From the NCBI GenBank assembly GCA_964536865.1, contig CAZHYN010000019.1, positions 1-13,981 of the forward strand: a DNA stretch of 13,981 nucleotides, given 5' to 3'. This stretch comes from an uncultured Planctomycetia bacterium. GTDB taxonomy: Bacteria; Omnitrophota; Gorgyraeia; Duberdicusellales; 4484-171. The notes below the pieces were generated by a model, which did no database searches, was not told where the DNA came from, and was given only the letters and a program-made list of their open reading frames with translations. Positions 105-13,413 of the stretch are shown here, one piece after another. Both the position numbers and the translations under genes were made by a program. Each line of letters begins with the position of its first letter. Within the stretch, counting starts at the first letter, position 1.

Positions 105-1781
105 ATGAAAGGTGCTCAAATCTTGGTTGAGAGCCTCCTTAAAGAGAATGTTGAGGTAATGTTTGGTTATCCGGGAGGGGCGGTTCTACCTGTTTTTGAC
201 TTTCTCTACGATGCCCCTATAAGGTTTGTTCTCTCTCGGCATGAACAAGGCGCTGCTCATATGGCTGATGGATATGCTCGTTCTACGGGCAAGGTAGGTG
301 TTTGTATCGCAACTAGTGGGCCGGGAGCTACTAATCTCACTACGGGTATTGCTACTGCTTATATGGATTCTGTGCCTATCGTAGCGATCACAGGACAAGT
401 TAGGACTTCTTTGATTGGTAACGATGCCTTTCAAGAAGCTGATGTTACCGGTATTACTCGTTCTATTACCAAACATAACTATCTCGTGAAGGATGTTAAA
501 GATTTAGCACATACGATAAAAGAATCCTTCTATATCGCAAAGAGTGGTCGACCAGGGCCAGTTTTAGTGGATCTACCAGTAGATGTTCAACTTCAGGAGA
601 CTGAGTTTATTTATCCCCAAACTATTAATATAAGAAGCTATAGACCTACTTACATTGGTCACCCTGGCCAAATTAAGAAAGCATTGAAGTTGATTTATAA
701 TTGTCAGCGTCCTGTGATTTTGGCAGGAGGAGGAATTATTATTTCTTCTGCTTCTAAGGAGCTTAGAGAGTTTGCAGAAAAAATTAACGCACCTGTTACT
801 ACTACTTTAATGGGGTTAGGGGGGTTTCCTGCTACTCATCCTCTTAGTTTAGGTATGCCAGGTATGCATGGGACAGTTTATGCCAACATGGCAATTACAG
901 AAAGTGATTTGATTATAAGTGTAGGGTGTCGATTTGATGATAGGGTGACAGGAAGAGTGGATGCTTTTGCACCAGGAGCGAAGATAATTCATATAGACAT
1001 TGATCCAACTTCTATAAGTAAAAATATAAAAGTAGATGTACCTATTGTAGGAGATGCTAAAAATGTATTAAGAGACTTTTTAGAAGAACTGGATTCCTCT
1101 AAATTATCTAATCTGGATAGGTGGCATCAACGGATAAAAGAGTGGAAGAAGAAATATCCTTTAACTTATAAGAGGAGCTCTCAGGGAAAGATTAAACCTC
1201 AGCATGTAGTAGAGGAGCTGTACATTCAGACTAAAGGAGAAGCTATTATTACTACAGAAGTAGGTCAGAATCAGATGTGGGCTGCTCAGTTTTATAAGAT
1301 TGATACTCCTCGTCATTTTCTTTCTAGCGGGGGCTTGGGAACAATGGGGTATGGCTTTCCTGCTAGTATTGGTGCCAAAGTAGGTAACCCTGAGAAAGAA
1401 GTTATTGATATTGCTGGAGATGGTTCTATTCAGATGAATATTCAAGAGTTAGCCACAGTTGCTACTTACAATATTGCCGTTAAGGTAGTAATTTTGAATA
1501 ATAATTATTTAGGGATGGTAAGACAATGGCAGGAGCTTTTCTATAAAAGAAGGTATTCAGCGACTCATCTCAAAAATCCTGATTTCGTAAAAGTAGCTGA
1601 GGGTTTTGGCGTTAAAGCAATGAGAGTTACTAGAGAAAGTGAGCTTAAAAAAGCAATTGAAGAAATTATTTCTTATAAAGGTCCGGTTTTAGCAGATTTT
1701 TGGATAGAGGAAGAAGAGAATGTTTTCCCCATGGTCCCTGCAGGAGAGGCGATCAACAGAATGATCGGGGGTATGGCTTAA
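105..1781 (+). CDS. ilvB: Acetolactate (acetohydroxyacid) synthase large catalytic subunit, ThDP-dependent
   Basis: 558-aa ORF. N-terminal [13 protein letters not shown], then [32 protein letters not shown]-terminal ThDP/Mg motif [12 protein letters not shown]...NNNYLGMV. Operon context with ilvN and ilvC. Confidence 0.95.
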
Positions 1782-3217
1782 TGGGGAAAGAGAAAATAGT
1801 TGTTTCTTACCACTCTCTTTTGAGAAAGTTCAATATATTTTTCATTTTCTCTTCTCTTATTCCGTTTCTAATAATTTTTTACTTTTATCTTCAAACTTTC
1901 ACCATGGGGAAGGTGATAATAGATGAGCATAGTTTATTTTTTCTCCTTATAGGAGTAGGAGTTATTTCTCTTATCTGTTTTTTGCTTTCACGGAGTTATT
2001 TAGTGAAAATAATTAAGTTAACTCAAAAAATAAGAGAGTCTTTATTTAAAAAAATAGATAGAGAAATGATTCTAGAACTTACTAAAGATGGAAGTGAGGT
2101 TGCTCAACTAGCAAAAGCATTCGGAGATATTTTACAGCGATTGGAAGATAATATAAAAGAGTTAGAAGAAACAAGAAGAAAGTTTTACGATATCCTCTCT
2201 AAGGTAGGAAAAGCTTTAACTTCTATTGATAATTTTGACTCACTTATTCATTTAATCTTAGAAACAACTGTTGAGGCTTTAGATGTAGAGAAGGGAGTAT
2301 TCTTTGTTGCTCAAGAAAACGGTACTTTTCAGTTGAAAAGTAGTGTAGGTTTAGAAGACACTTCATTAGATAAAGTTCTAAAGGAAAGTGCTTCTTTTAC
2401 TGAGTTGGTAACTAAGGAGAAAAAGATTGTTTTTCTTCCTTCTTTAGAGAGGGAAGAAGAAAAAAAGATATTTGTTTATCCTCTTGTGTGCGCACCTCTT
2501 ATTTATCATGATAAGTTATGGGGAGTTCTTTGCTTGAGCGGTAGGAAGAGACAAAATAATTTTACTGATGATGAGTTAAGAATAATTTCCCACTTAAGTT
2601 ATCAGCTTGCAGTAGCATTCGAAAATATGAAGCTGAATAAGGATATGGAAAGGACTTATTTTGAAACTATTGCTGCCCTGGCTTTAGCAGTGGAAGCAAA
2701 AGATCCTTATTCTAGGGGGCATTCAGAGAGAGTAGGCAGATATGCAGTCAAGCTTGCCAGAGAATTAGGTCTGTCTGAAGAAGATATTCATACTCTTCAA
2801 GATGCCTCTCGTCTTCACGATATTGGTAAAATTGGGATTACTGATATTCTCTTAAAGAAAGAAGGCGAGCTAAGTCCCCAAGAGCGGGAAATTCTAAGAA
2901 AACATTCTACTATTGGAGAAAGCATAGTTAAACCTTTAAAAACATTTCAACATCTCCTAGAGCCTATTAGACATCATCATGAGTATTTAGATGGTTCTGG
3001 ATATCCGGATGGTATAAAAGGGGATCAAATCCCTTTAATTACTCGGATTCTTACAGTAGCGGATATCTTTGATGCTCTTACTACTGATAGGCCTTACCGA
3101 AAAGCAAAGAGTTTTTCCGAGGCTAAAAAAGATTTACAAGATTTGGTAGAGAAAGGTAAAATTGACAAGAAGGTTGTAGACACTCTTTTTGTTCTTATAG
3201 AAGAAGGAAGATTATGA
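1781..3217 (+). CDS. Membrane-anchored HAMP-GAF-HD-GYP protein (predicted c-di-GMP phosphodiesterase)
   Basis: The track ORF starts at 1700 inside ilvB. The likely start is ATG 1781 (MGKEKIVV), which shares the A of the ilvB TAA stop (TAATG). Two hydrophobic helices (FNIFFIFSSLIPFLIIFYFYL and LFFLLIGVGVISLICFLL) flank a short loop. A HAMP-like coiled segment follows, then a GAF-like region (LIHLILETTVEAL...WGVLCLSG...ELRIISHLSYQLAVAFEN). HD is in RLHDIGKIG (codons 2816-2821). HHHEYLDGSGYP, matching HHExxDGxGYP, is at 2972-3007. DALTTDRPYR is also present. Confidence 0.85.
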   Translation: MGKEKIVVSYHSLLRKFNIFFIFSSLIPFLIIFYFYLQTFTMGKVIIDEHSLFFLLIGVGVISLICFLLSRSYLVKIIKLTQKIRESLFKKIDREMILELTKDGSEVAQLAKAFGDILQRLEDNIKELEETRRKFYDILSKVGKALTSIDNFDSLIHLILETTVEALDVEKGVFFVAQENGTFQLKSSVGLEDTSLDKVLKESASFTELVTKEKKIVFLPSLEREEEKKIFVYPLVCAPLIYHDKLWGVLCLSGRKRQNNFTDDELRIISHLSYQLAVAFENMKLNKDMERTYFETIAALALAVEAKDPYSRGHSERVGRYAVKLARELGLSEEDIHTLQDASRLHDIGKIGITDILLKKEGELSPQEREILRKHSTIGESIVKPLKTFQHLLEPIRHHHEYLDGSGYPDGIKGDQIPLITRILTVADIFDALTTDRPYRKAKSFSEAKKDLQDLVEKGKIDKKVVDTLFVLIEEGRL

Positions 3218-6207: not shown

Positions 6208-7074
6208 TTGAAAATAAGTAGGGATTTTCCTGATAGTCAAACTAAATTCTTAGGATTAATTGGGTTCCCTATAAAACATTCTCTTTCTCCTCAGATTCAT
6301 AATTACCTCTTTAAGAAGTACTCCTTAAATTATATCTATGGTTGCTTTGAAGTTAGACATCTAAAAGAAGTAGTAAGGGGACTTTCTAATTTGGGATTCA
6401 TAGGTTTCAATATCACTATTCCTTATAAAGAAAAGATTATTTCTTATCTTGATAGAGTAGATAAGGAAGCGGAAATTATTGGTGCAGTAAATACAGTAAA
6501 AATTAATCACAATGGTTTAACAGGTTTTAATACCGATGGAAGAGGATTCTTAAAGAGCTTAGAGGAGTTTGGTTTTACTTCCCAAGGAAAAGCGGTGTTA
6601 ATTTTGGGAGCAGGCGGAGGAGCAAAAGCAATAGCTACTTATTTGGCTAAGACAAGAGTAAAGATAATTGCTGTTTATGATATTATTTATAGAAAATCTT
6701 CTTTCTTAAAAAATAGGTTAAGTAGGTTTTTCCCCGAAACAGAGGTGGTGGCCCTAAAGGAAAAAAAGGAGATATCTTTGAAAGAGTTTGATTTGGTAGT
6801 TAACGCCACAGGAGTGGGGTTAAAGAAAAAAGATCCTTCTCCTATAAAGTTAGAAGGAGCGAAAAAACACTTAGTTGTCTATGATTTAATTTATAATCCC
6901 TTACTTACTTCTTTCCTTAAAGAAGCAAAGAAAAAAAAGCTTCTGGTTATAAATGGGTTGTGGATGCTTATATGGCAAGCTTTGGAAGCAGAAAGAATCT
7001 GGTTAGGAAGAAATTTCTATAAAGAGGCTCCAACTATTTATCAAATATTAACTAGGCATCTGGGAAAATGTTAG
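6208..7074 (+). CDS. aroE: Shikimate dehydrogenase
   Basis: GLIGFPIKHSLSPQIHN, NITIPYKEKI, GAVNTV, GFNTDGRGF, LGAGGGAKAI and YDLIYNP motifs. Apparent TTG start at 6208. No in-frame ATG lies upstream of the conserved N-terminal motif. Confidence 0.85.
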   Translation: MKISRDFPDSQTKFLGLIGFPIKHSLSPQIHNYLFKKYSLNYIYGCFEVRHLKEVVRGLSNLGFIGFNITIPYKEKIISYLDRVDKEAEIIGAVNTVKINHNGLTGFNTDGRGFLKSLEEFGFTSQGKAVLILGAGGGAKAIATYLAKTRVKIIAVYDIIYRKSSFLKNRLSRFFPETEVVALKEKKEISLKEFDLVVNATGVGLKKKDPSPIKLEGAKKHLVVYDLIYNPLLTSFLKEAKKKKLLVINGLWMLIWQALEAERIWLGRNFYKEAPTIYQILTRHLGKC

Positions 7075-7895
7075 TAGGATTGTTTGTTTTTGTTTTAGGA
7101 AGTTGTGTAGGGAGTTTTTTAAATGTCTGTATCTACCGGATGCCTAGAGAGATTTCTATAGTAAGACCGTTTTCCTTTTGCCCAAAATGTAAAGCTTCCA
7201 TAAAGTGGTATGATAACATTCCTATCTTAGGATTCTTCCTCTTAGGAGGGAAATGCAGGAGCTGTAAAGAGCCAATTTCTCCTAGATATCCATTAGTAGA
7301 GGCTATTACCGCCAGCTTATTTTTAATTCTTTATATCAAGTTTGGTTTAAGTTTTTCTCTCCTAAAGTATATCTTACTTTTCTCTCTCTTGGTTGTTGTC
7401 TCTTTTATTGATATAGATTATCATGCTCTTCCTATTTCTCTGTGTTTCATAGGGGTAAGTTTAGGAGTAATTCTTTCCCTTTACGAAACTATCTATACCA
7501 TAACTAAGTGGGGGATATCAAATCTCTATGCTCTTCCTATAACTAAATCTTTAATAGGGTTAATTACAGGATTTGGTTTTACTTATGCCTTTAAGTTTTT
7601 TGGGGATATATTTATTAGTTTATATTTAGCATTTAGAGGTAAAGAGTCCATCGAAGGTGAGAAAGAATCTTTAGGTTTAGGGGACGTGGATTTTATGGGG
7701 ATGGTAGGAGTATTTTTAGGGGCAAAACTTACTATTTTAGCTTTTTTTCTCGCACCTTTTCTTGCTATTTTCTACTCTATTTTTGCTTTAATTTTTAAAC
7801 GCTCCCACATAATTCCTTACCTTCCTTATCTCTCTTTAGCAAGTTTTTTATCTTTTATGTGGGGAGATGTTATCTTAAATCTTTTAAAGTTTTAA
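7068..7895 (+). CDS. pilD: Prepilin peptidase / N-methyltransferase (A24 family)
   Basis: N-terminal CPKC...CRSC zinc-type pair (FCPKCKASIKWYDNIPILGFFLLGGKCRSCKEPISPRYPLVE) and polytopic membrane body. Candidate catalytic Asp motifs are IDIDYHALP (7407-7433) and GLGDVDF (Asp codon 7683-7685). Overlaps the aroE stop by 7 nt. Confidence 0.85.
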   Translation: MLVGLFVFVLGSCVGSFLNVCIYRMPREISIVRPFSFCPKCKASIKWYDNIPILGFFLLGGKCRSCKEPISPRYPLVEAITASLFLILYIKFGLSFSLLKYILLFSLLVVVSFIDIDYHALPISLCFIGVSLGVILSLYETIYTITKWGISNLYALPITKSLIGLITGFGFTYAFKFFGDIFISLYLAFRGKESIEGEKESLGLGDVDFMGMVGVFLGAKLTILAFFLAPFLAIFYSIFALIFKRSHIIPYLPYLSLASFLSFMWGDVILNLLKF

Positions 7896-9199: not shown

Positions 9200-9385
9200 A
9201 TGGTAAGAAATAAGTACTATAGCGCTAAGGAGGCAGCAGAAATTTTAGGGATATCTAAACAAACTCTTCTTAGGTATGAGAAAAGGGGTATTTTTCCTAA
9301 ACCTAAGAGAAATCTGGTTAATGGTTGGAGAGAGTATACCGAAAGCGATTTAAATAAGCTGAAGAGGATTTTAGGTAGGATATGA
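9200..9385 (+). CDS. Stand-alone MerR/excisionase-type winged-HTH DNA-binding protein (61 aa)
   Basis: YSAKEAAEILGISKQTLLRYEKRGIFPKPKR...NGWREYTESDLNKLKRIL follows the MerR N-terminal HTH pattern (HTH, then G-x-R-x-Y-x-x-x-D-L wing). It has no effector or dimerisation domain. The stop overlaps the next start (ATGA at 9382-9385). No obvious SD. Confidence 0.7.
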   Translation: MVRNKYYSAKEAAEILGISKQTLLRYEKRGIFPKPKRNLVNGWREYTESDLNKLKRILGRI

Positions 9386-9753
9386 AATTTTCTAAGTTAG
9401 GGAGGTTAATTTTTCTATCAGGGATATTTACTAGTTTTGCATTTTACCTTACCTCTGGTATCTACAGTTTTGGAGAGAGTGCTATATCACCTCAGCGGAT
9501 TTCTTATTTACGTAATCCTTTTCTTACTCTTCAAGAAGAGGAGTTTTTTCGAACTTATAAAAGAAAGGTTATTGACTATTTAACTCTCTCGGGAATTATC
9601 TACTCCCCTCAAAACGCTTATGCAATCTTTCAGGGCAGGATACTTAAAAAAGGAGACATGTTAGATAGAAAGAGGATTATTGAGATTACTCCTAAAGAAG
9701 TGATTTTAGAAGATAATAAAGGTAGACAGTATTTGGTAAGAGTTAGAAAATGA
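9382..9753 (+). CDS. PilP/GspC-like secretin-interacting protein (N-terminal membrane anchor plus small beta domain)
   Basis: 123 aa. Hydrophobic anchor LIFLSGIFTSFAFYL, then an RNPF motif, then LTLSGIIYSPQNAYAIFQGRILKKGDMLDRKRIIEITPKEVILEDNKGRQYLVRV. This resembles the PilP / GspC-HR pattern (xDPF ... L-x-L-x-G-I ... A-x-I ... GD ... I ... V-x-L). Sits immediately upstream of the secretin genes. Confidence 0.5.
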   Translation: MKFSKLGRLIFLSGIFTSFAFYLTSGIYSFGESAISPQRISYLRNPFLTLQEEEFFRTYKRKVIDYLTLSGIIYSPQNAYAIFQGRILKKGDMLDRKRIIEITPKEVILEDNKGRQYLVRVRK

Positions 9754-10514
9754 ATATCTTTGGCGTCCTTTTATTTACGTTTCTTCTATTTGTAAGTACT
9801 CCTTCTTCTATCTTTTCTCAGCAGGAAAAAGAGTCTATAAATCAGGAAGAAAAAGTTTCTCTGAAGGAAGCAAAAGAAGAGGTAGAAAAAGAGATTCGCC
9901 AAGAGAAGGAAGGGGCAGCTAAAGAGAAAATAGAACAGCCTCCTCAATCTAAGTCTATTTTAGAGATTAAAGGAATAGAGGAACAAGAAGGCCTTTATTC
10001 TCTAGAGCTGAAAGATGTAGAGTTAGCTGATTTTTTTAGAGTGATTGCTCATAACTATCATCTCAATATCTTAGTAGACGAAGAGGTTAAAGGTAAAATC
10101 ACTGCTAGTTTAACTAATGTGACTTTAGAGGAAGCATTGAAAAGGATTGTAGAAGCTAACCATCTTGCTCTAGAGAAGAAAGGTAATATTATAATAATAA
10201 AGCCCAATTTGATTACAAAAGTTTTTGTCCTCAAGCATATCGAAGCTAAAGCAGTTCTAGAAGGAGAAGGCGATGAGAAAGAAGGTAAGTCCGCTGCTAT
10301 TCATACTCTTCTATCTGATCAAGGAAAGATTTTCTTAGGTAAGCAGTCAAACTCTCTTATAGTCACTGATCATCCAGCTAATGTAGAAAAGATAATGGTA
10401 TACTTAAAGAGCATCGATAAGGGGATGAGTAGTAAGGTGTTTAAGCTCAGATACATAAGTGCTAAAGATTTAATAGGAGAAGAAGATGAGGAGAAGGAAG
10501 AATCTTCTAAATAA
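9750..10514 (+). CDS. Secretin N-terminal periplasmic module (signal peptide, E/K-rich linker, N0/STN-like domain, one Secretin_N repeat, first strand of another)
   Basis: Hydrophobic N-terminus MNIFGVLLFTFLLFVSTPSSIFS. N0-like YSLELKDVELADFFRVIAHNYHLNILVDEEVKGKITASLTNVTLEEALKRIVEANHLALEKKGNIIIIKP. N1-like VFVLKHIEAKAV...LLSDQGKIFLGKQSNSLIVTDHPANVEKIMVYLKSID. It then reads VFKLRYISAKDL and ends in an acidic tail. There is no C-terminal secretin core in this ORF. Confidence 0.7.
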   Translation: MNIFGVLLFTFLLFVSTPSSIFSQQEKESINQEEKVSLKEAKEEVEKEIRQEKEGAAKEKIEQPPQSKSILEIKGIEEQEGLYSLELKDVELADFFRVIAHNYHLNILVDEEVKGKITASLTNVTLEEALKRIVEANHLALEKKGNIIIIKPNLITKVFVLKHIEAKAVLEGEGDEKEGKSAAIHTLLSDQGKIFLGKQSNSLIVTDHPANVEKIMVYLKSIDKGMSSKVFKLRYISAKDLIGEEDEEKEESSK

Positions 10515-11709
10515 GGTTGTAGTTTCTACATTTTTTAGTAGCTTATTTCTATTTTTTTCTCTGTTATCTATTCCTTTAAGTTATTCTGGGATTGCTTCGG
10601 AGATAAATTCTCTTCTTTCCAGTGAAGGCAAGATTCTCTTTGGAGAAGAGCCTAATTCTATATTAGTTATTGACTATCCAGAAAATTTAAGAAGAGTTGA
10701 GGAATATCTAAAGATGGTGGATACTCCTCCTAAACAGGTTCTTATCGAAGCTAGAGTGGTAGAGGTAAAACTTCAAAAGGAAAATGCTTTAGGAATTAAC
10801 TGGCAAGCTTTTGCCAAAAAGAATGGTTTTGAGCTAGGTCAATTTAAGATAGCTTCGAGTACCTCTGGTCCTTTAGAACAACAAATTCCTTACAAATCTA
10901 CCAACTATCCTCCAGGAAGTACTTCTGCTGAAGATCCTTTCACTATTACTATCTTTGATGATAATATTAATATTGTTCTTAAGGCACTAGCTAGCTCTTT
11001 TGATACTAACATCTTATCTGCTCCTAGAGTTACCACGGTAAATAACCGTCCTGCAGAAATCAAAATTATTGAGAAACTCCCTTGGGCAGAACCTCAGGTA
11101 GATATGAACGAGTTCGGTATCGCTATAAGTTGGAATATCAACTTTGAAGAAGTAGGAATAAGCCTTAAGGTTACTCCTACTATCACTGATGATGGAAAAA
11201 TTTCTATGGAGATTCATCCTGAAGTTAGCGAGAAAGTTGATGATTACCAGCTTACTGTAGTCCAGGGAAGTACACAGATTCCCTATACTGTCCCTGTGAT
11301 TGATACCCGTACCGCTGATACTAAAGTGGTTATTGGTAATGGCCAAACGCTTATAATTGGAGGCCTAATTAAGGAAAAGATTACCTCAGGAGTAAGTAAA
11401 GTTCCTCTTCTGGGAGACATTCCTGGTTTAGGTTGGTTTTTTAAAAGCAAGAAGGATACTAAGAATAAGACAGAGCTTTTAATCTTTGTTTCCCCCACTA
11501 TAATTACTTCCCAAGTAGTTGCCCGTATGGAGAAGAAAGAAAATCTAGATATAGGAAGATGGTACATGGAGGAAAGGATAAGAGAACAGAGAGCTTTAGA
11601 GAGTAAAGAAGGCAGAGAGGAAAAACTTCTTTCTAGGGTTAACTCTTTAGAAAAAAAGCTAAAGGAGATAATTAAAAAACGCAAAACATTAGAGAATAAA
11701 ATCTTTTAA
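10486..11709 (+). CDS. Secretin core protein (GspD/PilQ family C-terminal pore domain) with its own N-terminal export signal
   Basis: SD AGGAG at 10475-10479, 6 nt before ATG 10486. Signal-like MRRRKNLLNKVVVSTFFSSLFLFFSLLSIPLSYSG. Partial Secretin_N repeat INSLLSSEGKILFGEEPNSILVIDYPENLRRVEEYLKMVDTPPKQVLIEARVVEV. Core motifs ILSAPRVTTVNNRPAEI, GQTLIIGGL and VPLLGDIPGLGWFF (11401-11442), then ELLIFVSPTII. A 64-aa charged C-terminal tail follows. Confidence 0.85.
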   Translation: MRRRKNLLNKVVVSTFFSSLFLFFSLLSIPLSYSGIASEINSLLSSEGKILFGEEPNSILVIDYPENLRRVEEYLKMVDTPPKQVLIEARVVEVKLQKENALGINWQAFAKKNGFELGQFKIASSTSGPLEQQIPYKSTNYPPGSTSAEDPFTITIFDDNINIVLKALASSFDTNILSAPRVTTVNNRPAEIKIIEKLPWAEPQVDMNEFGIAISWNINFEEVGISLKVTPTITDDGKISMEIHPEVSEKVDDYQLTVVQGSTQIPYTVPVIDTRTADTKVVIGNGQTLIIGGLIKEKITSGVSKVPLLGDIPGLGWFFKSKKDTKNKTELLIFVSPTIITSQVVARMEKKENLDIGRWYMEERIREQRALESKEGREEKLLSRVNSLEKKLKEIIKKRKTLENKIF

Positions 11710-11733: not shown

Positions 11734-13413
11734 ATGGATAATAGTAAATTAAGAAAGAGAATTGGGGAGATTCTTATGGAGCAAGGTTACATCACTTCTG
11801 CTCAGTTAGAAGAGGCTCTAGAAGAACAGAAGATAACTGGAGAAAAACTCGGAGAAATTATGATAAGAAAAGGATGGATTTCTCAGGAAGTATTGAATCA
11901 AGCTTTAGCCAATCAAGCAGGCGTAAGTACTTTTGATTTATCTACCTATATCATTGATCCCGAAGTAATCAAACTAATTCCTGAAGAAGTAGCTACTAAA
12001 TATAAAGTTGTTCCTGTATTTAGAATAGATAATACTTTAACTGTTGCAATGGTCGATCCTAATAACGTTTTCGTTATCGATGAGCTTAGCCGTATAACTG
12101 GGTGTATAATTGAGCCGGTCTTAGCTGATGAGATTGCTATCCGTAAAGCCCACGATCAATACTATGGAGGTGCAGGAACTATTCAAGAGATTATTTCTAG
12201 TATCGATAAGGAAAAATTAGCTGAGGGGGAAAAGTTGGGGGAGGAAGCTCCTATAGTTAAGTTGGTAAATATGTTGATTGTAGAGGCAGTTCAGTCCAAT
12301 GCTTCAGATATTCATATTGAGCCAGAAGAAAAGTTTGTAGGGGTGCGTTACCGCATCGACGGGATTTTACGTCGGCGTACCTTTCTCCCCAAAGATCTTC
12401 AGCCAGCAGTCATATCCCGACTTAAAATAATGTCTGGTTTAGATATTGCTGAAAAAAGAATTCCTCAGGATGGAAGGATTATTATGAAGGTAGCTAATAA
12501 AGATATTGATTTTCGTGTTTCTACCTGTCCTACGGTCCATGGTGAGAATGTGGTTCTAAGGATTTTAGATAAAAGTAGTGTAAATATTGGGTTAGAAAAG
12601 TTAGGATTTCCTCCTCGGGAGCTAGAGTTATTTAGGGAACTTATCTTTCAACCTTACGGGATAATTTTAGTTACTGGTCCTACGGGAAGTGGTAAGACAA
12701 CTACTCTTTACTCTGCCCTGCAAAAAATAAACCGGGAGGAAGTAAATATTATGACGGTAGAAGATCCTGTAGAGTACCAGTTTCCTCGTATTCGTCAAGT
12801 ACAGGTAAACGTAAAAGCAGGACTTACTTTTGCTAGTGCCTTGCGTTCTTTTTTAAGGCAAGATCCTGATGTGATAATGGTAGGAGAAATTAGAGATTTA
12901 GAGACTGCTGAAATTGCTGTACAGGCAGCATTGACCGGGCACTTAGTTTTATCTACTCTTCATACCAATGATTCTCCTTCAGCATTTACTCGGTTGATAG
13001 ATATGGGAGTAGAGCCATTTTTGGTTTCTAGTTCTATATTAGGGGTATTGGCTCAGAGATTGGTAAGGAAGGTATGTTCTAAGTGTAAAGAAGAATATAC
13101 TCCTCCGCAACCTCTCTTAGATGATTTAGGGTTGGGAAATCTAGCTTCTGAATCTATAAAATTTGTAAAGGGAAGAGGATGTAAGTTATGTAATAGTTCT
13201 GGATATAAAGGTAGAATAGGGATTTTCGAACTTCTTAAAGTTACTCCTCAGATACAAGAATTAGTTTTGAGGAGAGCTTCTGCTGATGAGATCGGTAATA
13301 TAGCTAAGAATGAAGGGATGAAATCATTAAGAGAAGCAGCCATTGATAAACTTTTAGAGGGAGTGACTACCCCTGAAGAGGTAATGCGGGTGACTCAATC
13401 TTTAAAGAAGTAA
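11734..13413 (+). CDS. GspE/PilB/MshE-family type IV filament assembly ATPase with MshEN-type N-terminal domain
   Basis: Walker A GPTGSGKTTT (from 12676), Asp box VEDPVEY, Walker B DPDVIMVGEIRD, His box GHLVLSTLHTND. Tetracysteine pair CSKCK...CKLCNSSGYKGR. The track start is TTG 11722. ATG 11734 (MDNSKLRK) is preferred, and neither has a clear SD. Confidence 0.9.
   Translation: MDNSKLRKRIGEILMEQGYITSAQLEEALEEQKITGEKLGEIMIRKGWISQEVLNQALANQAGVSTFDLSTYIIDPEVIKLIPEEVATKYKVVPVFRIDNTLTVAMVDPNNVFVIDELSRITGCIIEPVLADEIAIRKAHDQYYGGAGTIQEIISSIDKEKLAEGEKLGEEAPIVKLVNMLIVEAVQSNASDIHIEPEEKFVGVRYRIDGILRRRTFLPKDLQPAVISRLKIMSGLDIAEKRIPQDGRIIMKVANKDIDFRVSTCPTVHGENVVLRILDKSSVNIGLEKLGFPPRELELFRELIFQPYGIILVTGPTGSGKTTTLYSALQKINREEVNIMTVEDPVEYQFPRIRQVQVNVKAGLTFASALRSFLRQDPDVIMVGEIRDLETAEIAVQAALTGHLVLSTLHTNDSPSAFTRLIDMGVEPFLVSSSILGVLAQRLVRKVCSKCKEEYTPPQPLLDDLGLGNLASESIKFVKGRGCKLCNSSGYKGRIGIFELLKVTPQIQELVLRRASADEIGNIAKNEGMKSLREAAIDKLLEGVTTPEEVMRVTQSLKK
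11758..11916 (+). other. Tandem 24-residue MshEN-type c-di-GMP-binding motifs separated by a 5-residue spacer
   Basis: RIGEILMEQGYITSAQLEEALEEQ (11758-11829), spacer KITGE, then KLGEIMIRKGWISQEVLNQALANQ (11845-11916). Both fit RLGxx(L/V/I)(L/V/I)xxG(L/V/I)(L/V/I)xxxxLxxxLxxQ, with conservative deviations. Motif 1 has I for L2, M at position 7 and Y at position 11. Motif 2 has K for R1, M at position 6 and W at position 11. Confidence 0.6.

What the first reader, a model, noticed from the sequence alone, without database searches (positions are those of the whole stretch)
9750..11709. Secretin encoded as two overlapping genes, split inside an N-domain repeat, with each half carrying its own export signal
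Secretins (GspD, PilQ and relatives) are normally a single polypeptide: N0, then N-domain repeats, then the pore domain.

Here ORF 9750-10514 carries a signal peptide, an N0/STN-like domain and one full Secretin_N repeat. It then carries only the opening strand of a further repeat (VFKLRYISAKDL) before an acidic tail and a stop.

ORF 10486-11709 is in the +1 frame and overlaps by 29 nt. It has a well-spaced SD (AGGAG at 10475-10479) and an ATG. It opens with a typical signal-like segment (MRRRKNLLNK plus a 19-residue hydrophobic stretch plus SYSG). It then resumes with what looks like the remainder of that repeat (INSLLSSEGKILFGEEPNSILVIDYPENLRRVEEYLKMVD), which is about 46% identical by eye to the corresponding part of the repeat in ORF1. 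The pore domain follows.

In ORF2's frame a TAG at 10474-10476 lies four codons upstream of the ATG, so only an indel within about 10477-10514 could fuse the two. Such a fusion would place a hydrophobic helix in the middle of a periplasmic domain.

This looks like a genuine gene fission. The resulting two-component secretin may reassemble by strand complementation of the split N-domain.
Basis: partly seen in the sequence, partly recalled or inferred. Interest (0 to 1): 0.75.

Follow-up and report, generated by a model that had tools for sequence, protein, structure and literature searches.

The report
Secretin pore split into two genes
In this Omnitrophota bacterium, and in most of its sampled relatives in this secretin family, the outer-membrane pore of a pilus machine is encoded by two adjacent genes cut through the middle of a small folded domain, each half has its own export signal, and the halves probably snap back together in the periplasm by sharing a beta-strand.

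Summary
ORF1 (9750-10514) has a signal peptide, N0/STN, one full Secretin_N domain, an orphan strand (KVFKLRYISAKDLIG) and an acidic tail. ORF2 (10486-11709) has a signal peptide, the rest of a Secretin_N domain, the pore domain and a C-terminal helix.

It is not an error. Two independent sequencing runs give the identical split. About 109 of the 120 best ORF2 homologues are split-type, and so are about 75 of the 79 strong 50%-identity ORF1 clusters; every named hit is Omnitrophota. Junction geometry varies (-29 to +45 nt, all three frame relations), which excludes a conserved frameshift.

Nine homologues are naturally fused, one of them checked at the orthologous locus. They carry a Ser/Thr/Gly-rich disordered loop exactly at the cut, so the gene broke at a pre-existing loop.

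The orphan strand is as conserved as the folded domains (0.67 against 0.70 and 0.61; tail 0.23). AlphaFold2 docks it onto ORF2's half-domain to give a complete secretin N-domain (pLDDT 80-92). Complementation is inferred, not shown.

Split secretin genes are already known in rhizobial type III systems, but there the cut is at a domain boundary, the genes are unlinked, and the pore half is a self-contained Tad-type secretin. A similar intradomain split also turned up in Verrucomicrobiota. Verdict: real, a new variant of a known kind, moderately interesting.

The parts
9200..9385 (+). 61-aa MerR-type HTH protein, the first gene of the conserved cluster
   Evidence: Pfam MerR_1 E 7.5e-12. It holds the same position in 5 of the 7 Omnitrophota loci inspected (L001/L002, L003/L004, L089, L091); it is not called in L005 or L092.
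9382..9753 (+). 123-aa protein with an N-terminal hydrophobic anchor and a CdsD_C / T2SSB(GspB)-like C-terminal domain. Its stop overlaps the ORF1 start by 4 nt. It is a candidate inner-membrane partner of the N0 domain.
   Evidence: Pfam CdsD_C E 2.2e-7 (above cut-off) and T2SSB E 0.004 (below cut-off). A 113-141 aa homologue lies directly upstream of the secretin gene(s) in the split, short-split and fused loci L001-L005, L089 and L091; L092 instead has a DUF8575 gene there. The partner role is an inference.
9750..10514 (+). ORF1, the secretin N-module (254 aa). Signal peptide aa 1-23 (9750-9818); charged linker aa 24-70; N0/STN aa ~70-155 (9957-10214); complete N-domain N1 aa 156-226 (10215-10427); orphan strand; acidic tail; stop.
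   Evidence: Model pLDDT is about 96 for N0 and N1. Closest solved relatives by sequence are PilQ/HofQ N0-N1. 100% identical protein P0121 occurs in 4 contigs.
10434..10478 (+). Orphan element of the split N-domain (ORF1 aa 229-243, KVFKLRYISAKDLIG): beta1 plus a short helical turn
   Evidence: Consensus frequency 0.67 over 138 ORF1-like sequences, against 0.70 (N0), 0.61 (N1) and 0.23 (tail). All ORF1-like proteins end with this element plus a low-complexity tail. In the mini-model it is a 6-residue strand; the 10-residue blocks covering it average pLDDT 80 and 92.
10479..10514 (+). Acidic low-complexity tail of ORF1 (EEDEEKEESSK) and its stop codon. It is the remnant of the ancestral linker loop.
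   Evidence: Fused relatives carry a 30-60 aa S/T/G-rich linker at this position. pLDDT is below 50 or about 62 in the two models.
10475..10479 (+). Shine-Dalgarno-like AGGAG, 6 nt upstream of the ORF2 ATG and inside ORF1's coding sequence
   Evidence: Purine-rich SD-like motifs precede the second gene in most of the relatives shown, whatever the gap or overlap.
10486..10587 (+). ORF2 signal peptide (aa 1-34: MRRRKNLLNK, hydrophobic core, SYS|G)
   Evidence: Read from the sequence. About 109 of 120 homologues have a canonical Sec-type N-terminus (a basic n-region such as MKK, a hydrophobic core, then [YF]AQ|[EQ]) ending 5-8 residues before the LLSSEGK helix. No dedicated signal-peptide predictor was available.
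10588..10725 (+). Remainder of the split N-domain (ORF2 aa 35-80): helix alpha1b, beta2, beta3, alpha2
   Evidence: Pfam Secretin_N matches profile positions 14-69 only. pLDDT is about 95. With the orphan strand it superposes on complete secretin N-domains over 75-81 of 85 columns at 2.0-2.8 A.
10735..11520 (+). Secretin pore region (ORF2 aa ~84-345; Pfam Secretin aa 167-340)
   Evidence: Pfam Secretin E 4.9e-47. PDB sequence hits XcpQ 5e-38 and V. cholerae PilQ 9e-36. Foldseek top hit is PilQ 6w6m, E 4e-19.
11521..11709 (+). C-terminal ~60-aa charged helix of ORF2, then the stop
   Evidence: Predicted as helices 539-551 and 553-603 of the pseudo-fusion model, with 10-residue block means of pLDDT 88-97. 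The function is unknown.
11734..13413 (+). PilB/GspE-family assembly ATPase with an MshEN (c-di-GMP-binding) N-terminal domain
   Evidence: Pfam T2SSE E 4e-142 and MshEN E 6e-21. TIGR02538 PilB scores 671.6 bits, just under the 675.65 cut-off. Gene callers start it at the ATG equivalent to 11734. It follows the secretin gene(s) in 6 of the 7 Omnitrophota loci inspected, after an extra 878-aa gene in L003/L004; it is not adjacent in L092.
7068..7895 (+). Prepilin peptidase (A24), showing that this genome region serves a type IV filament system
   Evidence: Precomputed Pfam A24_N_bact and Peptidase_A24 on the identical gene in L001.

Best explanation
A PilQ/GspD-class secretin of a type IV filament machine has undergone a fixed gene fission inside its last periplasmic N-domain.

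The ancestral gene encoded N0, N-domain(s) and the pore. Helix alpha1 of each N-domain was interrupted by a disordered low-complexity loop. In the last N-domain a stop codon arose in that loop, and the sequence downstream acquired a start codon, an SD and a Sec signal peptide.

The two genes stay adjacent and tightly linked, overlapping or nearly abutting (29-nt overlap here; -29 to +45 nt in relatives). Both products are exported separately.

- ORF1 is a soluble periplasmic N0-N1 module. It ends in an orphan beta-strand with a helical turn, then a floppy acidic tail.
- ORF2 is the outer-membrane pore. Its membrane-proximal N-domain lacks beta1.

In the periplasm the orphan strand of ORF1 most likely inserts at the free edge of ORF2's two-stranded sheet. 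That would complete the beta-alpha-beta-beta-alpha fold and tether the N0 ring non-covalently to the pore. The N0 ring is the part that contacts the inner-membrane platform, perhaps through the conserved upstream GspB/CdsD_C-like protein.

Shown: the fission, its conservation, selection on both halves, and the export signals as judged by sequence pattern. Inferred: the physical reassembly, its stoichiometry and any functional advantage.
For: 1. Domain content. ORF1 matches PilQ profile positions 5-74 and onward; ORF2 matches 125-427.

2. Not an error. The split is identical in contigs from SRR7517633 and SRR7517634, and the 92%-identical relative keeps the same -29 nt junction despite many nucleotide changes.

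3. Conservation. Of the 120 best ORF2 hits, 109 are 371-575 aa split-type, 9 are fused and 2 are truncated. Of the 90 ORF1 hits, 85 are stand-alone proteins of 232-348 aa or 173-196 aa, and the other 5 are shorter (162-222 aa), one of them labelled partial. In an exhaustive search, 79 clusters at 50% identity score E <= 1e-30, and all but 4 are 175-395 aa.

4. Fused relatives have an S/T/G-rich linker exactly at the cut; for the one looked up, P0030, the locus is orthologous by its flanking genes. The outgroup secretins that carry both ORF1-like and ORF2-like regions have them in one ORF, apart from the Verrucomicrobiota set.

5. No recoding. Junctions are -29, -14, +1, +5 and +45 nt with frame offsets +1, +2 and 0. 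ORF2-type proteins start with Sec signal peptides.

6. The orphan strand is conserved like a folded core: 0.67 against 0.70 and 0.61, with the tail at 0.23.

7. AlphaFold2. The mini pseudo-fusion has mean pLDDT 85.3 and pTM 0.74. The orphan strand is E7-12, with block-mean pLDDT 80 and 92, in a model whose only other strands are ORF2's beta2 and beta3. It superposes on complete HofQ, PilQ and XcpQ N-domains. N1 within ORF1 has the same topology, with its own disordered loop at the same place.

8. Structural precedent for inter-chain strand pairing holding an N0-like protein on a secretin: BfpB-BfpG (PMC12531336).
Against: - In the full-length pseudo-fusion model the orphan strand is only moderately confident (pLDDT 62-67, a 2-residue bridge).
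- Both models link the halves covalently, so they test fold compatibility rather than binding in trans.
- AlphaFold2 is biased towards completing a familiar fold.
- No heteromer prediction, covariation test or experiment was possible.
- Signal-peptide cleavage was judged by pattern only. The window's ORF2 h-region (about 21 residues) is long enough to be a membrane anchor.
- The polarity (fission rather than fusion) rests on outgroups and an unbootstrapped NJ tree in which fused forms are scattered.
Confidence: 0.7

Rival explanations
1. The two proteins are both functional but do not reassemble by strand complementation. ORF1 would act as an independent periplasmic adaptor, like BfpG/TcpQ or GspB. 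The orphan strand would be conserved for another reason, such as binding a neighbouring subunit, the upstream 123-aa protein or the pilus. ORF2's N-domain would tolerate the missing strand or borrow one from a neighbouring ORF2 subunit.
For: The full-length pseudo-fusion model docks the strand only weakly (pLDDT 62-67). Stand-alone N0-like secretin partners exist (PMC12531336). No trans-binding test could be run.
Against: The orphan element is exactly the part missing from ORF2's Secretin_N match: ORF2 covers profile positions 14-69, and ORF1 carries a beta1-like VFKLRY. In natural fusions the same two segments flank one linker within one domain. The mini-model completes the canonical fold with high confidence.
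Confidence: 0.22
2. The split is ancestral for this family, and the 567-700 aa forms are secondary fusions. That is, gene fusion rather than fission explains the two architectures.
For: Fused forms are a minority (9 of the 120 best hits) and are scattered on the NJ tree, with one (P0090) nested among split forms.
Against: The outgroup secretins from other phyla, and the Omnitrophota paralogues, that carry both regions have them in a single ORF, apart from the separate Verrucomicrobiota family. Most fused family members branch early. A fusion would have to delete a signal peptide precisely and regenerate a hydrophilic linker several times.
Confidence: 0.12
3. A single full-length secretin is made by programmed +1 frameshifting or another recoding event in the overlap, and ORF2's apparent start is incidental.
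For: The 29-nt overlap is purine-rich, and the close relative L089 has an A7 run there.
Against: Relatives have gaps of +1, +5 and +45 nt and all three frame relations, so no recoding site is conserved. The product would bury a hydrophobic signal peptide in a periplasmic domain, whereas natural fusions have a hydrophilic linker. ORF2-type proteins carry canonical signal peptides with AXA-like sites.
Confidence: 0.02
4. It is a sequencing or assembly indel, or a recent pseudogene: an ordinary single secretin gene broken by a 1-nt error.
For: Metagenome assemblies do contain homopolymer and low-complexity indels. The junction is purine-rich.
Against: The split is identical in independent runs and in 4 contigs. 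It is conserved in hundreds of divergent homologues from NCBI, JGI, ENA and Logan. ORF2 has its own SD, ATG and signal peptide, and both halves are under purifying selection.
Confidence: 0.01

Closest known systems
Type IVa pilus secretin PilQ / competence secretin HofQ (single polypeptide: N0-N1-secretin)
   Same: ORF1's N0 and N1 are most similar to PilQ/HofQ N0-N1 (PDB 4av2, 3jc8, 6w6m, 2y3m). ORF2's pore is similar to PilQ and XcpQ, and the top Foldseek hit is V. cholerae PilQ. Neighbours are a PilB-like ATPase, a prepilin peptidase and pilin genes.
   Different: It is encoded as two polypeptides, cut inside an N-domain. There are no AMIN domains. There is an extra duplicated N-domain. Low-complexity loops interrupt alpha1. 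There is a C-terminal ~60-aa helix. Neither half reaches the TIGR02515 cut-off (80 and 210 bits against 284).
Rhc-type T3SS 'split secretin' RhcC1 (NolW) + RhcC2 of rhizobia and Pseudomonas syringae T3SS-2 (PMC3574062, PMC3973906)
   Same: A secretin function is divided between an N-terminal-module protein (N0 plus Secretin_N, 234 aa) and a pore protein. The published functional significance is 'not known'.
   Different: Pfam analysis here shows NolW has a complete Secretin_N (profile 1-63 of 69). RhcC2 is a self-contained Tad/RcpA-type secretin (T2SS-T3SS_pil_N + BON + Secretin). So the division is at a domain boundary, with no orphan strand. The genes are about 11.6 kb apart on opposite strands of pNGR234a. 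The system is a T3SS, not a type IV filament system.
Type IVb pilus secretin complexes BfpB-BfpG / TcpC-TcpQ (PMC12531336)
   Same: A separately encoded, separately exported N0-like protein is attached to the secretin by inter-chain beta-strand pairing at fixed stoichiometry. This is the kind of contact proposed here.
   Different: BfpG is an extra N0-like accessory on the outside of the N3 ring, and BfpB keeps its own N0 and a complete N3. No domain is split. BfpB is a lipoprotein, and ORF2 shows no lipobox by eye.
Verrucomicrobiota two-gene GspD-like secretins (found here: loci L020, L027, L029, L032, L041)
   Same: Adjacent genes. The upstream protein has N0, 2-3 Secretin_N domains, a conserved orphan beta1-alpha1 element and a low-complexity tail. 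The downstream protein has a signal peptide, a Gly-rich linker, a partial Secretin_N (profile 25/31-69) and Secretin. The family is large: all 120 top hits lack the pore domain.
   Different: Only about 28-36% identical to ORF2. The N0 is GspD-type rather than STN-type. The cut lies after the whole of alpha1 rather than within it. The origin is therefore apparently independent. I found no description of it in the literature searched.
Donor-strand complementation in chaperone-usher pili (from general knowledge, not tested here)
   Same: An incomplete fold in one periplasmic protein is completed by a strand donated from another polypeptide.
   Different: The fold is unrelated (Ig-like), the chemistry of assembly differs, and the arrangement did not arise by gene fission.

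Membership tests
Secretin superfamily (Pfam PF00263 pore + periplasmic N-domains) | C-terminal secretin pore domain | tested here: met
   ORF2 aa 167-340, E 4.9e-47, 160 bits against a 27.5 cut-off. Foldseek and PDB hits are to secretins.
Secretin superfamily (Pfam PF00263 pore + periplasmic N-domains) | N0 (STN-like) and Secretin_N ring-building domains | tested here: met
   In ORF1, STN scores 36.6 bits (cut-off 28.4) and Secretin_N 33.5 bits (cut-off 28.2). In ORF2, a partial Secretin_N scores 29.0 bits.
Secretin superfamily (Pfam PF00263 pore + periplasmic N-domains) | All domains on one polypeptide | tested here: not met
   There are two ORFs with separate starts, stops and signal peptides.
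Type IVa pilus secretin PilQ (NCBIfam TIGR02515) | Score above the curated cut-off (284.35 bits) | tested here: not met
   ORF1 scores 80.3 bits and ORF2 210.5 bits. Neither passes alone. The simple sum (290.8) would pass, which fits one PilQ-like protein cut in two.
Type IVa pilus secretin PilQ (NCBIfam TIGR02515) | Genomic association with type IV filament genes (PilB ATPase, prepilin peptidase, pilins, PilMNOP) | tested here: inconclusive
   A PilB-like ATPase is adjacent. A prepilin peptidase lies 2 kb upstream. PilW_C/N_methyl pilin genes lie downstream in relatives. No pilMNOP is seen within the window.
Type II secretion secretin GspD (NCBIfam TIGR02517) | Score above the curated cut-off (351.35 bits) and N0-N1-N2-N3 architecture | tested here: not met
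   ORF2 scores 222.1 bits and ORF1 47.9 bits. There are only N0 plus two N-domains.
Rhc-type split T3SS secretin (RhcC1/RhcC2) | Located in a type III secretion gene cluster | tested here: not met
   Window neighbours are type IV filament genes, with no sct/rhc genes.
Rhc-type split T3SS secretin (RhcC1/RhcC2) | N-module with complete domains plus a pore protein with pil_N and BON domains; genes unlinked | tested here: not met
   NolW and RhcC2 were analysed. Here the cut is intradomain, ORF2 has no pil_N or BON, and the genes overlap.
T4bP secretin with N0-like accessory (BfpB-BfpG / TcpC-TcpQ) | Lipoprotein secretin with its own N0, plus a small separate N0-like partner | tested here: not met
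   By eye, ORF2's signal peptide has no cysteine and so no lipobox; no lipoprotein predictor was run. ORF2 has no N0. ORF1 carries the system's only N0 plus a full N-domain.
Intradomain-split secretin (the class proposed here) | Adjacent genes; the upstream product ends in a conserved orphan element of a Secretin_N domain plus a low-complexity tail; the downstream product starts with a signal peptide followed by the rest of that domain and the pore | tested here: met
   Window. Omnitrophota relatives L005, L006, L007, L089, L091 and L092. Verrucomicrobiota analogue.
Intradomain-split secretin (the class proposed here) | Physical reassembly of the two products through the orphan strand | not testable with these tools
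   Only covalently linked pseudo-fusion models could be run. Heteromer prediction or biochemistry is needed.

The most novel reading that the evidence does not exclude
Periplasmic strand complementation of a split ring-building domain may be a recurrent, selected way to build secretins. A detachable N0-N1 adaptor protein would click onto a separately assembled outer-membrane pore. This would have evolved at least twice, in Omnitrophota PilQ-like and Verrucomicrobiota GspD-like secretins, by fission at the disordered loop of the pore-proximal N-domain, with a new signal peptide arising each time. If so, coupling between the outer-membrane pore and the inner-membrane platform could be assembled stepwise or be reversible in these lineages.
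Probability: 0.45. Interest if true: 0.7.

Novelty: new variant of a known kind. Interest (0 to 1): 0.58.

Why it matters
**Structural biology.** Secretins are treated as archetypal single-chain, 12-17-mer outer-membrane channels, whose N-domain rings are covalently strung to the pore. These natural, widely conserved families have the chain cut inside a ring-building domain. That suggests the periplasmic vestibule can be assembled from separate polypeptides. They also provide ready-made split sites and matched natural fused controls for studying assembly order, symmetry and coupling to the inner-membrane platform.

**Genome annotation.** In Omnitrophota and Verrucomicrobiota the N-module is currently labelled 'hypothetical' or 'secretin N-terminal domain-containing protein', and the pore is labelled 'GspD'. 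Inventories of pilus or secretion machinery can therefore misjudge completeness.

**Evolution.** This is a clean, well-sampled example of gene fission at a disordered loop, with a Sec signal peptide acquired by the new downstream gene.

**Rhizobial case.** The analysis suggests the textbook rhizobial 'split secretin' may be a different thing: an N0-N1 module plus a Tad-type secretin.

Tried and rejected
- **Genome survey diluted.** It returned mostly distant secretins from other phyla and only two close relatives. I used it as an outgroup panel rather than as a split-versus-fused census.
- Only the window-derived chimera was accepted. The models therefore rest on 8-9 natural fusions plus unpaired rows.
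- **No coordinates.** Model coordinates are not exposed. Strand pairing was inferred from the DSSP string, pLDDT and Foldseek alignment spans rather than from measured contacts.
- **Wrong first guess.** My first guess for the pNGR234a T3SS region (450-500 kb) was wrong. The genes were found at 69-98 kb.
- **Operon scan uninformative.** The promoter and terminator scan around the operon gave counts equal to those in shuffled sequence.
- **Literature.** Searches for a split T4P/T2SS secretin, or for Omnitrophota secretins, found nothing relevant beyond the Rhc case. The library is incomplete, so this is weak evidence of novelty.
- **Regex error.** The regular expression picked an internal N-domain rather than the terminal element. 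I replaced its consensus line with direct reading of the printed C-termini.
- **Rejected explanations.** I rejected sequencing error, pseudogene and programmed frameshift; reasons are given under the rival explanations.
- **Covariation not attempted.** The orphan strand is nearly invariant, and the few changes follow phylogeny.

Full report
**Observation.** The window contains two overlapping + strand ORFs as described: 9750-10514 (254 aa) and 10486-11709 (407 aa). ORF2 is in the +1 frame and the overlap is 29 nt. AGGAG lies at 10475-10479, 6 nt before the ORF2 ATG. In ORF2's frame, TAA and TAG occupy 10471-10476.

Pfam gives the following:
- ORF1: STN (aa 105-152), GspD-like N0 (aa 86-130) and Secretin_N (aa 177-224).
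- ORF2: Secretin_N covering only profile positions 14-69 (aa 36-84), and Secretin (aa 167-340, E 4.9e-47).

NCBIfam aligns ORF1 to the start of PilQ (profile 5-74 onward) and ORF2 to PilQ 125-427. Each half falls below the family cut-off, but their sum would pass it. By sequence, ORF1's closest solved relatives are PilQ/HofQ N0-N1, and ORF2's are XcpQ/GspD and PilQ pores.

**Context.** The genes sit in a type IV filament cluster. The order is a MerR-type HTH (9200-9385), a 123-aa membrane-anchored CdsD_C/GspB-like protein (9382-9753, overlapping ORF1 by 4 nt), ORF1, ORF2, and a PilB-like ATPase with an MshEN domain (11734-13413). A prepilin peptidase lies at 7068-7895. Every hit that carries a source name is from Candidatus Omnitrophota.

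**Is the split real?** Yes.
- The identical split occurs in contigs assembled from two different runs, SRR7517633 and SRR7517634.
- A 92%-identical relative keeps the same 29-nt overlap despite many nucleotide differences.
- Of the 120 best ORF2 homologues (52-92% identity), 109 are 371-575 aa proteins that begin with a canonical Sec signal peptide. The mature N-terminus lies 5-8 residues before the LLSSEGK helix. Nine are fused and two are truncated calls.
- Of the 90 ORF1 homologues, 85 are stand-alone proteins of 232-348 aa or 173-196 aa; the other 5 are shorter (162-222 aa), one of them labelled partial. Nearly all of the 85 end in [KR]VFKLKY[IL]xAx[DE][IV]xG, then a 20-35 aa low-complexity tail and a stop.
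- An exhaustive search of 1.84 billion cluster representatives found 79 representatives at E <= 1e-30. All but four are 175-395 aa.
- The seven Omnitrophota loci inspected share the cluster's core: five have the MerR gene, six the small upstream gene, and six the PilB-like ATPase after the secretin gene(s). L092 departs most.

**No recoding.** The junction differs among relatives: -29 nt (window, L089), -14 (L091), +1 (L005, L092), +5 (L006) and +45 (L007). The frame offsets are +1, +2 and 0. In most relatives the second gene has an SD-like purine tract, and in all it has its own start codon. A fused read-through product would place a signal peptide in the middle of a periplasmic domain.

**What the fused relatives show.** Nine homologues of 567-700 aa are single polypeptides. 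For P0030, the one I looked up, the locus is orthologous by its flanking genes. P0027, P0029 and P0030 have exactly the domain order of ORF1 plus ORF2. In all nine, the segment ...VFKLxY...G is joined to ...xIxxLLSxxGK... by a 30-60 aa Ser/Thr/Gly-rich linker. The complete N-domain inside ORF1 (N1) has a shorter disordered loop at the same point. Its model topology is beta1, a short helix, a loop with pLDDT below 50, a helix, beta2, beta3 and alpha2.

So this family's N-domains carry an insertion-prone loop that interrupts alpha1, and the gene was cut in that loop in the pore-proximal domain. A shorter subtype also exists (N0, strand and tail; 173-196 aa), paired with a 371-aa pore protein (L005).

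Among the outgroups, the secretins that carry both regions have them in one ORF, apart from the Verrucomicrobiota set. On an unbootstrapped NJ tree the fused family members mostly branch early, although one is nested. Fission is therefore the likelier polarity, possibly more than once. This is the weakest link in the evolutionary argument.

**Mechanism.** The orphan element (ORF1 aa 229-243) is as conserved across 138 sequences as the folded domains. Consensus frequencies are 0.67 for the orphan element, 0.70 for N0 and 0.61 for N1. The tail after it (0.23) is as variable as the N-terminal linker (0.21). That argues for a structural role even though ORF1 lacks the rest of that domain.

I ran two AlphaFold2 models.
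- The full pseudo-fusion of mature ORF1 and mature ORF2 has mean pLDDT 83 and resembles solved secretins (top Foldseek hit V. cholerae PilQ, E 4e-19). Its orphan strand is only moderately confident, at pLDDT 62-67.
- The 85-residue mini-construct (ORF1 221-254 plus ORF2 35-85) folds with mean pLDDT 85 and pTM 0.74. The orphan segment forms a six-residue strand, with block-mean pLDDT 80 and 92; the only other strands in the model are ORF2's beta2 and beta3. The acidic tail is the only weak region.

The mini-model superposes on complete N-domains of HofQ, PilQ and XcpQ over 75-81 of 85 columns at 2.0-2.8 A. The E-values are modest, as expected for so small a domain.

These models join the halves covalently. 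They show fold compatibility, not binding in trans. Reassembly is therefore inferred, and I put it at about 0.6-0.7.

**Comparison with known systems.** Split secretin genes are documented for Rhc-type T3SS as rhcC1/nolW plus rhcC2, with the significance stated to be unknown (PMC3574062, PMC3973906). I retrieved both genes from pNGR234a. NolW is N0 plus a complete Secretin_N. RhcC2 is T2SS-T3SS_pil_N + BON + Secretin, which is a self-contained Tad/RcpA-type architecture. The genes lie about 11.6 kb apart on opposite strands. That case is therefore a domain-boundary, unlinked arrangement, unlike the intradomain, adjacent split here.

The T4bP BfpB-BfpG complex shows that a separately exported N0-like protein can be held on a secretin by inter-chain beta-strand pairing (PMC12531336). 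There, however, no domain is split.

I found no description of a split PilQ/GspD-class secretin, though the library is incomplete.

**A second family.** Five Verrucomicrobiota loci in the outgroup panel (L020, L027, L029, L032, L041) show an analogous split of a GspD-like secretin.
- The upstream protein has N0 and 2-3 Secretin_N domains. In the two read in full (L027, L041) and in all homologues printed, it then ends in a conserved VY/FV(F/Y)SLENADxQQVxxVLxEMF element (beta1-alpha1) and a ~45-aa N/Q/S/T/G-rich tail.
- The downstream protein has a signal peptide, a Gly-rich linker, a partial Secretin_N (profile 25/31-69) and Secretin.
- All 120 top homologues of the N-module lack a pore domain.

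The cut lies one helix later than in Omnitrophota and the proteins are only about 30% identical, so the origin looks independent.

**Verdict.** It is a new, widespread variant of a known kind (split secretins). Three things distinguish it: the cut runs through a domain, an orphan strand is conserved, and a second signal peptide has been acquired. Interest is moderate to good (0.58). It would rise if trans-complementation were demonstrated.

Noticed in passing
L027 2505-3776 and 3794-5005; L041 2415-3719 and 3752-4981; also L020, L029, L032: Verrucomicrobiota GspD-like secretins are also encoded as two adjacent genes cut inside the last Secretin_N domain, here after alpha1. The upstream product has a conserved orphan beta1-alpha1 element and an N/Q/G-rich tail; the downstream product has a new signal peptide. 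All 120 top homologues of the N-module lack a pore domain.
   Followed up: partly
L088 5373-6077 (+) and 17670-19097 (-) (pNGR234a): The textbook rhizobial 'split secretin' does not look like a simple cut. RhcC2 has T2SS-T3SS_pil_N + BON + Secretin, a Tad/RcpA-type architecture, and sits next to a CpaD-family lipoprotein gene. NolW has a complete N0 and Secretin_N. The pair may be an SctC N-module combined with a recruited Tad-type pore.
   Followed up: partly
L005 6001-6546 and 6548-7663; proteins P0199-P0209: A shorter split subtype in the same Omnitrophota family. The N-module is only N0 plus the orphan strand and tail (173-196 aa), so the extra N1 domain of the window's ORF1 has been gained or lost within the family.
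   Followed up: partly
proteins P0136, P0140, P0152, P0156, P0161, P0170, P0182, P0193, P0197, P0208 (C-termini): A subset of ORF1-like proteins replaces the S/T/G-rich tail with a highly charged one, 'LFPxL...ERxEREKQREERKxER...'. It looks like a coiled-coil or charged-helix variant. Its meaning is unknown.
   Followed up: no
window 11521-11706 (ORF2 aa 346-407): ORF2 ends in a ~60-residue charged helix, confidently predicted (10-residue block means of pLDDT 88-97), after the secretin domain. Some homologues extend it greatly (P0016 is 525 aa, P0086 is 575 aa). It is not a recognised S-domain, and its function is unknown.
   Followed up: no
window 9382-9753: A conserved 123-aa gene overlaps the ORF1 start by 4 nt. 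It has an N-terminal hydrophobic anchor and a CdsD_C / weak T2SSB(GspB)-like C-terminal domain. It lies directly upstream in the split, short-split and fused loci L001-L005, L089 and L091, but not in L092. It is a plausible inner-membrane partner for the N0 domain.
   Followed up: partly
L003 8132-10768 (and L004 7157-9793): In the locus with the fused secretin (P0030), an 878-aa protein with no Pfam hit is inserted between the secretin and the PilB-like ATPase. The split loci do not have it.
   Followed up: no
window 1700-3217 and 11734-13413: A 505-aa ORF lies between ilvB and ilvN and reads like an HD-GYP-type c-di-GMP phosphodiesterase (HDIGK..., HHHEYLDGSGYP by eye; not profile-tested). 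The pilus ATPase carries an MshEN c-di-GMP-binding domain (NF053729, E 8e-22). This hints at c-di-GMP control of the pilus.
   Followed up: no
proteins P0346-P0465 (C-termini): The low-complexity tails of the Verrucomicrobiota N-modules contain a conserved 'LQNRANQ' motif, and most of the 18 tails printed end in GGF. A C-terminal aromatic residue is reminiscent of outer-membrane-protein sorting signals. Unexplained.
   Followed up: no
L089 about 2501-2515: The 92%-identical relative has an A7 run just after the ORF2 ATG, within the 29-nt overlap. It is a potential indel hotspot, yet both reading frames are preserved.
   Followed up: no
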